This document shows, one piece after another, positions 19,174 to 22,105 of a stretch of 64,000 nucleotides of DNA; position 1 is the stretch's first letter, and every line of letters begins with the position of its first letter. Both the position numbers and the translations under genes were made by a program. The stretch lies in assembly GCF_058153355.1 (NCBI RefSeq), contig NZ_CM177019.1. One strand, given 5' to 3'. The notes under the pieces are model-generated. The model searched no databases. It was not told the origin of the DNA and saw only the letters and a program-made list of their open reading frames with translations.

Positions 19174-19703
19174 CGTGAGCCCTTTTATTTGAACTATTAT
19201 TTAAAAATGATGTCACTGCACCACAAATATTCATCTAATCAATGAGATTATTTCAAGATGTAAGTTTTAGTTTCTCATTTAAATTGTGAAGTAGATCCCT
19301 ATTTTTATCTGAACTGTTTCTATTGCACACAATGCATGACTATTTTGTGAACGAATATAAATTTGGTAGTCAAATTATATTAAAGGTTGTTATTTATGAT
19401 TGACTCATAATTTATTTATTTAATTTAAATAGCCTAAAAATAACCATGGAGATTATTTGCATGATATTTGTTTAGATTTGTTAATGTAGTTGAGGTGATT
19501 TTATTTAATACGCAATATAGCGCCGCTTGATATTAGTTCTATTTTTTTTTTGCGTAAGATAGATGAGACAAACTGAGACGCATAATGGTTTGCAAGGCTC
19601 TAATACTTTGATGTTGAGGATGTGATGGGGCATGTACGTGCATAGTACAATGATGTCCATGCCGGTGTGGATAATCTCCAGGCTTATCCGGTGCGCCGTA
19701 AAA

Positions 19704-20177
19704 CCCCGTCCTTCAGGGCGGGGATATAAGGCGCGGTTTTCCACCTGACCAGGTGTTTGCTGTTGTTCAATGTATTGGCGGATGACGGATATTGGCGCAC
19801 CTCCGCAGCTACTGGCAAAATAGCCGGGACTCCACAAAACGCCTTTGTAGTAATACCTGACTGCAATATCTGGTCGATCTCGTCGCAGTAATCTACCCGA
19901 TACGCCTTTGTGGCTGTTTACCAGACTGGATATCGCCAGTTTGGGAGGATAGTTAATTAACAAATGGACGTGATTCTGGTTCGCCATCCATTTCAACCAG
20001 TTCAGCTTCAAAATCAGCACATACATTTGAAAAGTAAGTGCGTAGTTTTTCTGTCGCGTCATGGTCAAAAATCTGACGTCGGTATCTGGTGACAAAGACC
20101 CGGTGAACATGCATCAGAAAAACACAGTGCCTTCCACGCCGGATATCGGTTTCTTTTTTCACAGACCAAAGTATCAT
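19704..20177 (-). pseudogene. tnpA: IS200/IS605 Y1 (HuH) transposase TnpA, split by a frameshift
   Basis: N-terminal part in ORF 19953..20177 (HCVFLMHVHRVFVTRYRRQIF...ELVEMDGEPE); HuH motif and catalytic-Tyr region in a different frame in ORF 19505..20110 (NHVHLLINYPP...SCGGAPISVIRQYIEQQQ); frame switch near 19965..19985. Confidence 0.7.
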
Positions 20178-20184
20178 TTGGCCT

Positions 20185-21393
20185 GTGAAACGACTACAAG
20201 CATTTAAATTCCAGTTAAGACCAGGTGGTCAACAGGAGCGTGAAATGAGGCGCTTCGCAGGCGCATGTCGTTTCGTTTTCAATCGTGCTCTGGCACGTCA
20301 GAATGAGAATCATGAGGCCGGTAATAAATACATCCCTTACGGGAAAATGGCTTCCTGGCTGGTTGAGTGGAAAAATGCCACTGAAACGCAATGGCTTAAA
20401 GATTCGCCCTCACAGCCATTGCAACAGTCACTGAAAGACCTTGAGCGGGCTTACAAAAACTTCTTCCAGAAGCGGGCTGCTTTTCCCCGATTCAAAAAGC
20501 GGGGACAGAATGATGCATTCCGCTACCCGCAGGGCGTTAAGCTCGATCAGGAAAACAGCCGTATTTTTCTGCCGAAACTGGGCTGGATGCGCTACCGGAA
20601 CAGCCGTCAGGTCACGGGTGTTGTGAAAAATGTCACGGTCAGCCAGTCCTGCGGTAAGTGGTACATCAGTATTCAGACAGAAAGTGAAGTATCCACTCCG
20701 GTTCATCCTTCAGCATCAATGGTCGGGCTGGATGCTGGCGTGGCTAAACTCGCCACGCTGTCAGATGGCACAGTCTTTGAGCCTGTAAACAGTTTTCAGA
20801 AAAACCAGAAGACGCTGGCGAGACTTCAGCGACAGTTAAGCCGCAAGGTCAAATTCAGCAACAACTGGCAGAAGCAGAAACGCAAAATACAGCGACTGCA
20901 TTCCCGTATCGCAAATATCCGCAGGGACTACCTTCACAAAGTCACAACGACCGTCAGCAAAAACCACGCAATGATAGTCATTGAGGATTTGAAGGTCAGC
21001 AACATGTCAAAGTCAGCAGCGGGTACGGTCAGCCAGCCGGGGCGCAATGTCCGGGCAAAATCAGGTTTAAACCGTTCGATACTGGATCAGGGCTGGTATG
21101 AAATGCGCCGCCAGCTTGAGCACAAGCAGCTCTGGAGTGGCGGTCAGGTGCTTGCTGTTCCGCCAGCGTACACAAGCCAGCGTTGCGCGTGCTGTGGTCA
21201 TACAGCGAAAGAAAACCGCCTGTCACAAAGTAAATTCAGATGCCAGGTATGTGGATATACAGCGAACGCCGATGTAAATGGCGCTCGTAACATTTTAGCG
21301 GCGGGGCACGCCGTTCTTGCCTGTGGAGAGATGGTGCAGTCAGGCCGCCCGTTGAAGCAGGAACCCACCGAAATGATTCAGGCGACAGCCTGA
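20185..21393 (+). CDS. tnpB: TnpB (IS605 OrfB), RuvC-like RNA-guided endonuclease; intact; GTG start
   Basis: 402-aa ORF; N-terminus resembles TnpB; C-terminal zinc finger CxxC...CxxC ([37 protein letters not shown]) and RuvC-like segments. Confidence 0.85.
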
Positions 21394-21432
21394 ACGTAGC
21401 AGGGATCCACGTCCTTCAGGGCGTGGAGGATG

Positions 21433-22105
21433 TCAACAAACAGGTTGAATTAACTTCGCGCCCTGGTTTTTGACATTACCCACCGCGCGCGACACAGGGT
21501 GCCAGGTGAACTGGTTTGCTGGAACACAGCCACTGGCAGAAATTTCAGAGGCTTCTTTACCGCTAATCTCTTGCCGCATCCATTCCCGCGCAGCTTCTGG
21601 CGACAGTACCAGCGGGCGGCGGTCATGAATATCTACCAGACCCTGGTCTGCTGCTGCAGTGACAATTAAAAATCCTTCGGCTTCGTCACCACGCTCAAAC
21701 GGTGTGCTACCTATCGCGGCTATAAAAACAGGTTGTCCATCAGCGCGATAGATAAAATAAGGCTGTTTTTTTGTCGCCTTCTTTTTTCCACTCAAACCAG
21801 CCATCGGCAAAACAGATTGCCCGACCATGTTGCCAGAGCGGTTTAAACATACGACTGGTTGCCGCAGTTTCTACGCGGGCGTTAATCAGCGGCGGTTTAT
21901 CCCACCATCCGGGAGCATATCCCCAGAAAACCGGATCCAGATGAAGGTGTTCATCACGTTCACTGAGCAGAAGAACTTTGGTTCCCGGCGCGACGTTGTA
22001 TCTGCCAATGGGTTCGGGATCGTAGGGAATATCGCGTTCAATATCTTCCGCGAGAAGCGCAAGGTAATCTTCACGCGTTTGGGATTGGGCAAAGCGTCCA
22101 CACAT
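21433..22105 (-). pseudogene. yedK: YedK (SRAP/HMCES-family abasic-site processing protein) disrupted by a +1 frameshift in a homopolymer run
   Basis: N-terminal 121-aa ORF (MCGRFAQSQ..., catalytic Cys2) and C-terminal 131-aa ORF overlap in different frames; 7-nt T run at 21766..21772 where the intact reading requires 6. Confidence 0.8.

What the first reader, a model, noticed from the sequence alone, without database searches (positions are those of the whole stretch)
20175..20187. tnpA and tnpB start codons are head-to-head only 7 bp apart
The tnpA ATG (minus strand, 20175..20177) and the tnpB GTG (plus strand, 20185) are separated by 7 bp. The promoters of these divergent genes must therefore lie inside each other's coding sequence. 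This compact arrangement implies coupled or mutually interfering expression, and it may matter for how TnpB and its RNA are expressed once tnpA is broken.
Basis: seen in the sequence. Interest (0 to 1): 0.3.

Follow-up and report, generated by a model that had tools for sequence, protein, structure and literature searches.

The report
Two-way leaderless promoter inside IS609
The two genes of this E. coli jumping-gene copy (IS609) sit back to back because one tiny two-way promoter lies between them and starts the tnpB message exactly at its start codon; the "7 bp" gap comes from a single base change, and the layout is normal for this element family.

Summary
The coordinates are right. CAT (the minus-strand ATG) is at 20175-20177, GTG is at 20185-20187, and 7 bp lie between them. 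RefSeq annotates E. coli copies the same way. The site is the centre of an IS609 copy (IS200/IS605 family, 19688-21436).

Comparison with about 70 related elements changes the reading. In 67 of 72 junctions tnpA starts at an ATG that corresponds to window GTG 20160-20162 (codon 6 of the annotated ORF). This leaves a non-coding gap of 20-23 bp. That gap holds two overlapping -10 hexamers on opposite strands: TATAAT for tnpB and TATACT for tnpA. Each lies 6-8 nt from its start codon, and the -35 hexamers sit in the partner gene's first codons.

Two published E. coli K-12 transcription-start datasets place the tnpB (insQ/ydcM) start at, or within 1 nt of, the G of its GTG, so that mRNA is leaderless. 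A tnpA start at the junction is inferred, not shown.

The chromosomal E. coli lineage carries weakening changes: both starts are GTG, the -10 core is mutated, and a lineage-specific 14-nt palindrome is present.

This is a tidy example of a known promoter type and is of modest interest.

The parts
19688..21436 (+). IS609 copy (IS200/IS605 family), oriented with tnpB on the + strand
   Evidence: Homology among four different insertion sites begins at CCGGTGCGCC and ends at GTCAA. K-12 annotates the same element as IS609, 1748 bp. It is 95-99% identical to copies in most E. coli genomes.
19684..19687 (+). TTAT target motif immediately 5' of the left end
   Evidence: TTAT (TTAC in the plasmid copy L084) precedes the left end at all four insertion sites compared. 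Its role as the motif TnpB needs next to its target is inferred from family knowledge.
19704..19723 (+). left-end subterminal hairpin (CCCCGTCC-TTCA-GGGCGGGG)
   Evidence: Read from sequence. It mirrors the right-end hairpin.
19745..20177 (-). tnpA pseudogene as annotated (143-codon frame). It has an extra T at 19974 and has lost its stop codon (TAG to CAG at 19745-19747).
   Evidence: Pfam Y1_Tnp matches on both ORF fragments. Alignment to the intact copy L002 shows the changes.
20160..20162 (-). ancestral tnpA start codon (GTG here; ATG in 67 of 72 related junctions)
   Evidence: Many relatives' TnpA are annotated at 138 aa starting at this position.
   Evidence: Relatives have AAT here, and 1-bp indels in this stretch show it is non-coding in them.
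20163..20184 (.). 22-bp core between the conserved start codons: the bidirectional promoter
   Evidence: A gap of 20-23 bp in 67 of 72 junctions. Per-position conservation fits a -10 element.
20172..20177 (+). tnpB -10 hexamer TATCAT (TATAAT in 32 of 67 relatives), 7 nt before the GTG
   Evidence: The K-12 start site lies at the eighth base downstream of this hexamer.
20170..20175 (-). tnpA -10 hexamer GATACT (TATACT, TATAGT or TATATT in relatives), 7 nt before GTG 20162. It shares 4 bp with the tnpB -10.
   Evidence: No start site has been mapped here.
20149..20154 (+). weak -35-like hexamer for tnpB (GTTTCT; TTGTCA or TTGTTT in other clades), inside tnpA codons
20194..20199 (-). -35-like hexamer for tnpA (TTGTAG), inside tnpB codons 4-5
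   Evidence: The Gln5 codon is CAA in 51 of 52 distinct genes, against 34% CAA at other Gln codons of the same genes.
20185..21393 (+). tnpB (402 aa, intact). The GTG start is also the transcription start by homology to the K-12 copy.
   Evidence: Three Pfam domains match from residue 1. It aligns with ISDra2 TnpB from residue 3, and the three RuvC catalytic motifs are present. The N-terminal 20 aa are conserved as protein. dN/dS is 0.08-0.29.
20157..20190 (.). 14-nt-arm palindrome (13 of 14 paired, 6-nt spacer) spanning both start codons; specific to the chromosomal E. coli lineage
   Evidence: repeat I2. Folding gives -15.4 kcal/mol against a median of -3.7 in relatives, and 0 of 1000 shuffles reach it.
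20163..20169 (.). AGACCAA block, nearly invariant in relatives; function unexplained
   Evidence: It is also present in the Acidiphilium and Bifidobacterium elements.
19828..19828 (+). position equivalent to a second tnpB-strand start site in K-12 (356-nt leader, antisense to tnpA)
   Evidence: Kim et al. 2012 supplementary TSS table: TSS 1501325, 28 reads. Mapped to the window by sequence.
21406..21427 (+). right-end subterminal hairpin
   Evidence: repeat I4.
21266..21449 (+). probable guide-RNA (omega RNA) region spanning the tnpB 3' end, the right end and the first flanking bases
   Evidence: Only sub-threshold Rfam matches to HgcC, sot0042 and RAGATH-18. The assignment is inferred from family knowledge.

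Best explanation
The finding marks the centre of an IS609 element. The roughly 22 bp between the conserved tnpA start (GTG 20160-20162, minus strand) and the tnpB start (GTG 20185-20187) form one compact bidirectional sigma-70 promoter.

Its two -10 hexamers lie on opposite strands and share a 4-bp TATA core (TATC here). Each is 7 nt from its start codon, so RNA polymerase would begin each transcript at the first base of that codon, giving leaderless mRNAs. The -35 hexamers fall in the first codons of the partner gene.

Shown: the tnpB start site coincides with its GTG in the K-12 copy, and the architecture is conserved across about 70 elements.

Inferred: tnpA is also leaderless from this core, and the annotated tnpA ATG at 20175-20177 is part of the promoter rather than the real start.

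In the resident chromosomal E. coli lineage the module is degraded. The core is TATC instead of TATA, and both starts are GTG, which by established knowledge is a poor leaderless start in E. coli. Expression is therefore probably very low, and tnpB-direction transcription continues whether or not tnpA is intact.
For: 1. Conserved spacing. Of 72 related junctions (TnpA 62-85% identical), 67 have 20-23 bp between a tnpA ATG and the tnpB ATG. Lengths of 20, 21, 22 and 23 bp all occur, so the stretch is non-coding.
2. -10 elements. The tnpB -10 is TATAAT or TATNNT, 6-7 nt before the ATG, in 67 of 67 junctions analysed. The tnpA -10 is TATACT, TATAGT or TATATT, 6-8 nt before its ATG. -35 hexamers of form TTGnnn lie 16-18 bp away on both sides. 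Conservation peaks at T1, A2, T3 and T6 of the hexamer, while the 6-7 nt before the tnpB ATG are close to random and carry no ribosome-binding site.
3. Synonymous-site test. tnpB Gln5 is CAA (TTG on the tnpA strand) in 51 of 52 distinct genes, against 34% CAA elsewhere in those genes.
4. Experimental start sites. Kim et al. 2012 (PMC3415461, Table S4, 'leaderless mRNAs') list ydcM/b1432 with its start site equal to the gene start, a 5' UTR of 0, and 14 reads. SMRT-Cappable-seq, which captures triphosphate 5' ends (PMC6131387), lists b1432 at 1503656; insQ starts at 1503657.
5. tnpB start codon. Pfam and ISDra2 TnpB align from residues 1-3, and residues 1-20 are conserved as protein.
6. Annotation of close relatives. 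The 90%-identical E. coli plasmid copy has ATG/TATAAT/ATG and is annotated with a 138-aa TnpA and a 22-bp gap.
7. Published promoter class. Divergent start sites 18, 10 or 23 bp apart are the common classes of bacterial bidirectional promoters (PMC12825309). Here the two start-codon first bases are 23 bp apart.
Against: - No tnpA-direction start site at the junction was found in the K-12 tables I could read. Those files are truncated and may omit intragenic sites.
- K-12 also carries CAG at Gln5, which removes the TTG of the tnpA -35, so K-12 is a poor test of the tnpA direction.
- The related loci are not independent samples.
- The start-site data come from the K-12 copy, not this window; it differs by 1 nt in the spacer (20181 G to A).
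- The -35 hexamers in the window are weak (2 of 6 matches for tnpB).
- Strong conservation of AGRCCAA is not explained by a plain promoter.
- PGAP and the IS609 naming use the 143-aa TnpA.
Confidence: 0.7

Rival explanations
1. The annotated arrangement is the functional one. TnpA starts at ATG 20175-20177, 7 bp from tnpB, and both genes are transcribed from promoters deep inside each other's coding sequence.
For: It is the longest ORF with an ATG and is the PGAP call in E. coli. K-12 has a tnpB-strand start site 356 nt upstream inside tnpA and a weak (2-read) minus-strand start site 482 nt upstream inside tnpB. A weak AGG lies 6 nt before the ATG.
Against: The ATG is absent or out of frame in relatives and lies within the conserved -10 hexamer. 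Relatives start at codon 6. The main mapped tnpB start site is at the GTG itself, not inside tnpA.
Confidence: 0.15
2. The 14-nt-arm palindrome 20157-20190 is the functional element. It could be an operator for a dimeric regulator, or an RNA hairpin that hides both start codons in read-through transcripts and so shuts the element down. This reading can coexist with the bidirectional-promoter explanation.
For: 13 of 14 positions pair and the fold is -15.4 kcal/mol; 0 of 1000 shuffles reach that value. Its right arm is an inverted copy of the invariant AGRCCAA block. Long-leader and read-through transcripts that would contain it exist in K-12.
Against: It is absent from all relatives outside the chromosomal E. 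coli lineage. The primary tnpB transcript starts inside the right arm and cannot form the hairpin. No binding protein is known.
Confidence: 0.15
3. tnpB really starts at the internal ATG 20245 (Met21), which has a strong AGGAG ribosome-binding site, so the gap is much wider.
For: AGGAG lies 6 nt upstream of ATG 20245.
Against: Residues 1-20 are conserved as protein, with synonymous DNA changes. The AGGAG arises from Gln-Glu-Arg codons only in Enterobacterales. Pfam HTH_OrfB_IS605 and ISDra2 TnpB align from residues 1-3.
Confidence: 0.03

Closest known systems
IS609 of E. coli (IS200/IS605 family, divergent tnpA/tnpB organisation)
   Same: 95-99% DNA identity to the element annotated as IS609 in K-12 and O157. 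It has the same genes, the same ends and the same junction sequence.
   Different: This copy has a frameshifted tnpA that has also lost its stop codon. It sits beside yedK rather than between ydcL and ydcO.
Bacterial bidirectional promoters (Warman, Grainger and colleagues; PMC12825309)
   Same: A pseudo-symmetrical -10 region usable on both strands, with divergent starts about 23 bp apart. That is one of the reported common spacings.
   Different: Here both predicted start sites coincide with start codons. The two hexamers overlap by 4 bp (my reading); I could not compare this with the published configurations because the figure is not held. Only one direction has a mapped start site.
Leaderless mRNAs of E. 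coli K-12 (for example the list in Kim et al. 2012, Table S4)
   Same: ydcM/insQ, the K-12 copy of this tnpB, is in that list with a 5' UTR of 0.
   Different: The 5' codon is GUG, not AUG, in the chromosomal E. coli lineage. Relatives have AUG.
IS200 tnpA expression control (weak promoter; ribosome-binding site hidden in an mRNA stem-loop) - recalled from memory, not tested
   Same: Same family, very low transposase expression, and a hairpin over the start region in the E. coli lineage.
   Different: IS200 has a leader and a ribosome-binding site. Here there is no leader, and the hairpin is lineage-specific and absent from the primary tnpB transcript.

Membership tests
IS200/IS605 family (IS609) | Y1 (HUH) transposase TnpA | tested here: met
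   Pfam Y1_Tnp matches both ORF fragments (E = 2e-10 and 7e-24). The gene is broken in the window.
IS200/IS605 family (IS609) | TnpB with OrfB_IS605 and zinc-ribbon (TNB) domains and an intact RuvC catalytic triad | tested here: met
   Three Pfam domains match. The alignment to solved TnpB-type structures shows the GLDAG, IEDL and NADVNGA motifs.
IS200/IS605 family (IS609) | Subterminal hairpins at both ends instead of terminal inverted repeats | tested here: met
   Similar hairpins at 19704-19723 and 21406-21427.
IS200/IS605 family (IS609) | Insertion 3' of a fixed tetranucleotide, without target duplication | tested here: met
   TTAT (or TTAC) precedes the left end at four different sites, and the flanks are otherwise unrelated.
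IS200/IS605 family (IS609) | Near-identity to the reference IS609 | tested here: met
   The junction stretch (window 19950-20450) is about 97-98% identical in K-12-type and O157 genomes, and its end-to-end extent matches the K-12 feature labelled IS609. ISfinder itself was not available.
IS200/IS605 family (IS609) | Guide RNA (omega RNA) encoded at the tnpB 3' end and right end | tested here: inconclusive
   Only sub-threshold Rfam matches (HgcC 21.9 bits, sot0042 17 bits, RAGATH-18 25.4 bits).
Bidirectional sigma-70 promoter | -10 hexamers on both strands that overlap | tested here: met
   TATCAT (+, 20172-20177) and GATACT (-, 20170-20175). Relatives have TATAAT and TATACT.
Bidirectional sigma-70 promoter | Two divergent transcription starts a fixed short distance apart | tested here: inconclusive
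   The tnpB start is mapped in K-12. No tnpA start at the junction was found in the held tables.
Bidirectional sigma-70 promoter | RNA polymerase binds in either orientation, and the two orientations exclude each other | not testable with these tools
   Needs in vitro transcription or footprinting.
Leaderless mRNA | Primary 5' end at the first base of the start codon | tested here: met
   Met for tnpB in the K-12 copy: a 5' UTR of 0 and a capped-end start site at, or 1 nt before, the GTG. tnpA was not tested.
Leaderless mRNA | 5'-terminal AUG (needed for efficient leaderless translation in E. coli; established knowledge) | tested here: not met
   GTG in the window and in the chromosomal E. coli lineage. 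ATG in 65 of 72 related junctions.

The most novel reading that the evidence does not exclude
The junction could be more than a promoter. It could be an ancient expression-and-control module that works in many hosts. Under this reading, leaderless starts let the element be translated in hosts from different phyla, for example Proteobacteria and Bifidobacterium. The nearly invariant AGRCCAA block, duplicated in inverted form in E. coli to give the palindrome, would be a binding site for a host or element-encoded factor that switches transcription between tnpA and tnpB.
Probability: 0.15. Interest if true: 0.55.

Novelty: new member of a known kind. Interest (0 to 1): 0.3.

Why it matters
- Annotation: gene callers report gaps of -2, 7 or 22 bp for one and the same architecture. 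The conserved tnpA start is probably codon 6 of the E. coli ORF.
- tnpB expression: tnpB and its guide RNA are made from a promoter that does not depend on tnpA being intact. This fits the thousands of E. coli genomes that keep an intact tnpB, under purifying selection, next to a decayed tnpA.
- Experimental system: it offers a natural, very small bidirectional promoter with two leaderless genes for testing RNA polymerase competition. The resident E. coli copies look down-tuned compared with the rare plasmid-borne form.

None of this overturns current understanding.

Tried and rejected
- Internal tnpB start at Met21 with AGGAG: rejected, because the N-terminus is conserved as protein and the ribosome-binding site is clade-specific.
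- Palindrome as a conserved structure: rejected as a family feature, because it occurs only in chromosomal E. coli copies.
- Rfam scan of 19300-21900: nothing at the junction, and only sub-threshold hits at the tnpB 3' end.
- Strict consensus promoter scan: no site at the junction at 9 of 12 matches or better, because the window's hexamers are degenerate.
- Terminator-like hairpin 20138-20150 on the + strand: judged weak. It is not conserved, and K-12 shows ydcL-insQ read-through.
- Literature searches for IS609 + TnpB, insQ + transcription start, leaderless + TnpB + tnpA, and insQ + leaderless found nothing relevant. The yncK search matched author names only.
- Other start-site sources: the dRNA-seq paper I tried by PMC id is not held. 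The Cappable-seq supplement has no rows for this region. Conway 2014 has no held supplements.
- More distant divergent elements do not share the design: gaps of 36 and 61 bp, the latter with a GGAGG ribosome-binding site. The module is therefore clade-specific, not general to all divergent IS605-type elements.

Full report
**Observation.** The sequence reads ...cacagaccaaagtatCATttggcctGTGaaacga... CAT is at 20175-20177, GTG is at 20185-20187, and 7 bp lie between them. Each codon is the most upstream possible start of its ORF. RefSeq/PGAP annotates E. coli copies in the same way: tnpA ends 7 bp before tnpB in strains ST865, R32_14_1F, a K-12 derivative, O157:H7 and MG1655. The literal observation is confirmed.

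**What the locus is.** The ORFs are a Y1/HUH transposase (Pfam Y1_Tnp) and a TnpB (OrfB_IS605, Cas12f1-like TNB and HTH_OrfB_IS605 domains, matching from residue 1).
- Comparing four insertion sites shows that homology starts at CCGGTGCGCC, directly after a TTAT, and ends at GTCAA. The element therefore spans 19688-21436, with similar subterminal hairpins at 19704-19723 and 21406-21427.
- MG1655 labels the same 1748-bp element IS609.
- A 1.9-kb query spanning the element and short flanks matched at 80% coverage or more in 4312 of 5426 complete E. coli genomes.
- In the window tnpA is broken twice relative to the intact copy L002: an extra T at 19974, just before the HUH motif, and loss of the TAG stop (19745-19747 is CAG).
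- tnpB is intact. It aligns with the solved ISDra2 TnpB from residue 3 and keeps the three RuvC motifs. It is under purifying selection, with dN/dS 0.14-0.29 among E. coli copies and about 0.08 against other Enterobacterales.
- Sub-threshold Rfam hits to HgcC, sot0042 and RAGATH-18 at 21266-21449 fit a guide RNA at the 3' end but do not prove one.

**Where the genes really start.**
- For tnpB, GTG 20185 stands. Residues 1-20 (M[KQ]RLQA[FY]K[FY].L.P.G.Q...) are conserved as protein in about 70 relatives while the DNA varies synonymously. The attractive internal Met21 with AGGAG exists only where the codons happen to be Gln-Glu-Arg.
- For tnpA the picture changes. A protein search showed that close relatives (about 80-85% identical) are mostly annotated at 138 aa and begin M(K/T)(K/N)ETDIRRG. 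That start corresponds to codon 6 of the E. coli ORF.
- I fetched 80 related loci from one-genome-per-species contigs (TnpA 62-85% identical). Almost all that hold both genes have them divergent and head to head.
- With tnpB on the + strand, the junction consensus is CAT-AGACCAA-AG-TATA-AT-N6/7-ATG.
- The CAT (tnpA ATG) aligns with window CAC 20160-20162. It is ATG in 67 of 72 junctions and GTG in 4; the last junction (L010) was not scored by the search pattern.
- The distance to the tnpB ATG is 20 bp (7 loci), 21 bp (23), 22 bp (20) or 23 bp (17). These lengths are not multiples of three, so the stretch is non-coding.
One A-to-C change created an in-frame ATG 15 nt upstream of the old start.
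- A 90%-identical copy on an E. coli plasmid keeps CAT...TATAAT...ATG. PGAP annotates it with a 138-aa TnpA and a 22-bp gap.

**What the 22 bp are.** In the 67 junctions with a 20-23 bp gap:
- The tnpB side carries TATAAT (32), TATACT (9), TATCAT (7), TATGAT (7) or another near match, 6-7 nt before the ATG. A TTGnnn hexamer lies 16-18 bp upstream, inside tnpA codons.
- The opposite strand carries TATACT (27), TATAGT (11), TATATT (7) or similar, 6-8 nt before the tnpA ATG. TTGAAG or TTGTAG lies 17-18 bp upstream, inside tnpB codons 4-5.
- The two -10 hexamers share the TATA core.
- Conservation is highest at T1, A2, T3 and T6 of the hexamer (0.97-1.0). The 6-7 nt before the tnpB ATG carry almost no information and no ribosome-binding site.
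- As an independent test of the tnpA -35, the Gln5 codon of tnpB is CAA (TTG on the other strand) in 51 of 52 distinct genes. Only 34% of the other Gln codons in those genes are CAA (binomial p about 5e-23; relatedness inflates this figure).
- In the window the elements are TATCAT at 20172-20177 (+), GATACT at 20170-20175 (-), GTTTCT at 20149-20154 (+) and TTGTAG at 20194-20199 (-).

**Experimental support from the K-12 copy.**
- Kim et al. 2012 (PMC3415461) list ydcM (b1432, now insQ) in their Table S4 of leaderless mRNAs. The start site is 1501681, equal to the gene start, with a 5' UTR of 0 and 14 reads. The printed upstream sequence ends ...AGTATCATTTGACCTG.
- SMRT-Cappable-seq (PMC6131387, Supplementary Data 2) lists b1432 with a start site at 1503656 on the forward strand, and insQ starts at 1503657. 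That table gives thrL as 147, and from memory the accepted value is 148, so it may be zero-based. Either way the primary 5' end is at the G of GTG or 1 nt before it.
- The tnpB mRNA is therefore leaderless, starting at the eighth base after TATCAT, as the comparative model predicts.
- Kim et al. also list a stronger + strand start site 356 nt upstream, inside tnpA (28 reads; window equivalent 19828), and a 2-read minus-strand start site inside insQ. They list none at the predicted tnpA start.
- That absence is weak evidence. The held files are truncated, and K-12 carries CAG at Gln5, which removes the TTG of the tnpA -35.

**Comparison with known promoter types.** Warman et al. 2026 (PMC12825309) describe bacterial bidirectional promoters as pseudo-symmetrical -10 regions. 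Their divergent start sites are most often 18 bp apart, with 10 and 23 bp also common. Polymerase competition appeared only when one direction was strongly activated. Here the first bases of the two conserved start codons are 23 bp apart (21-24 in relatives).

**Features specific to the E. coli lineage.**
- The chromosomal E. coli form differs from the plasmid-borne form at three functional bases: tnpA ATG to GTG, TATAAT to TATCAT (which also changes TATACT to GATACT), and tnpB ATG to GTG.
- The tnpB-side spacer is TTGGCCT (TTGGCTT in the plasmid copy), an inverted near-copy of the tnpA-side AGACCAA.
- Together these changes create the 14-nt-arm palindrome 20157-20190. It folds at -15.4 kcal/mol, against a median of -3.7 for relatives.
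- The window-type junction is found in 3966 of 5426 genomes, almost always on the chromosome (6659 of 6664 places). The ATG/TATAAT/ATG form is found in only 17 genomes, mostly on plasmids.
- By established knowledge, leaderless GUG starts are translated poorly in E. coli. The resident copies therefore look down-tuned. This is an inference.
- The primary tnpB transcript starts inside the right arm, so the hairpin could matter only for long-leader or read-through RNAs.

**Reach of the design.** Elements with only about 50% TnpA identity keep the design: Acidiphilium (CAT-agacctaatc-TATAAT-aggtac-ATG, 22 bp) and Bifidobacterium longum (CAT-gaagaccaag-TATAAT-accaaac-ATG, 23 bp). A Klebsiella plasmid element (36 bp) and a second Bifidobacterium element (61 bp, with a GGAGG ribosome-binding site) do not. 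The module is clade-wide, not universal among divergent IS605-type elements.

**Unexplained.** The AG(A/G)CCAA block next to the tnpA start is almost invariant, whereas its mirror position on the tnpB side is free to vary. A plain discriminator does not need such conservation. One relative (L073) has six tandem CATAGAC units there.

**Verdict.** But the 7-bp figure rests on a lineage-specific ATG that most likely belongs to the promoter. The feature is a compact bidirectional promoter with a leaderless tnpB (shown in the K-12 copy) and a probably leaderless tnpA (inferred). Both the promoter class and the K-12 start site were already published. The family-wide view appears to be new, as far as the searched literature shows, and is of modest interest.

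Noticed in passing
window 19745-19747 and 19974: tnpA is damaged twice relative to an intact E. coli copy: an extra T at 19974, and the stop codon TAG changed to CAG. The 199-224 aa TnpA entries among E. coli hits suggest the stop loss is common there (not checked copy by copy).
   Followed up: partly
window 21433-22105 (minus), extra T at 21766: yedK carries a 1-bp insertion in a T run, which causes a frameshift. Its TGA stop (21433-21435) is supplied by the last bases of the IS. Rebuilding the empty site as TTAT|CAAACAGG restores ...IQPV-stop. Both single-T insertions in this window (tnpA and yedK) could be real decay or homopolymer sequencing errors.
   Followed up: partly
window 20163-20169; loci L003-L082, L089, L090: The AG(A/G)CCAA block beside the tnpA start is nearly invariant across about 70 elements and two phyla, while the mirror position before tnpB is random. 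No function was found.
   Followed up: partly
L073 (Methylobacter luteus), junction region: Six tandem copies of CATAGAC sit exactly at the tnpA start and conserved block. This suggests replication slippage at this site.
   Followed up: no
window 19828 (+), by homology to K-12 position 1501325: K-12 has a tnpB-strand transcription start inside tnpA (28 reads, stronger than the leaderless one). It gives an RNA antisense to tnpA with a 356-nt leader that would contain the palindrome.
   Followed up: partly
E. coli genome collection: The window-type junction is in 3966 of 5426 genomes and is almost always chromosomal. The ATG/TATAAT/ATG form is in 17 genomes, mostly on plasmids. K-12 and O157 copies also carry CAG at tnpB Gln5, which removes the TTG of the tnpA -35.
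   Followed up: partly
L010 (record titled Streptomyces mutabilis, 2-kb contig): The contig carries an element whose TnpA and TnpB are about 82% identical to the E. coli proteins, typical of Enterobacterales. This is probably assembly contamination.
   Followed up: no
window 21423-21444 / 21462-21483: A 22-nt inverted repeat (77% complementary) spans the IS right end and the yedK flank. Its significance is unknown, and it may be chance.
   Followed up: no
window 20138-20159 (+): A short terminator-like hairpin followed by a T run lies just upstream of the junction, inside tnpA codons. It is weak, not conserved, and K-12 shows read-through across it.
   Followed up: partly
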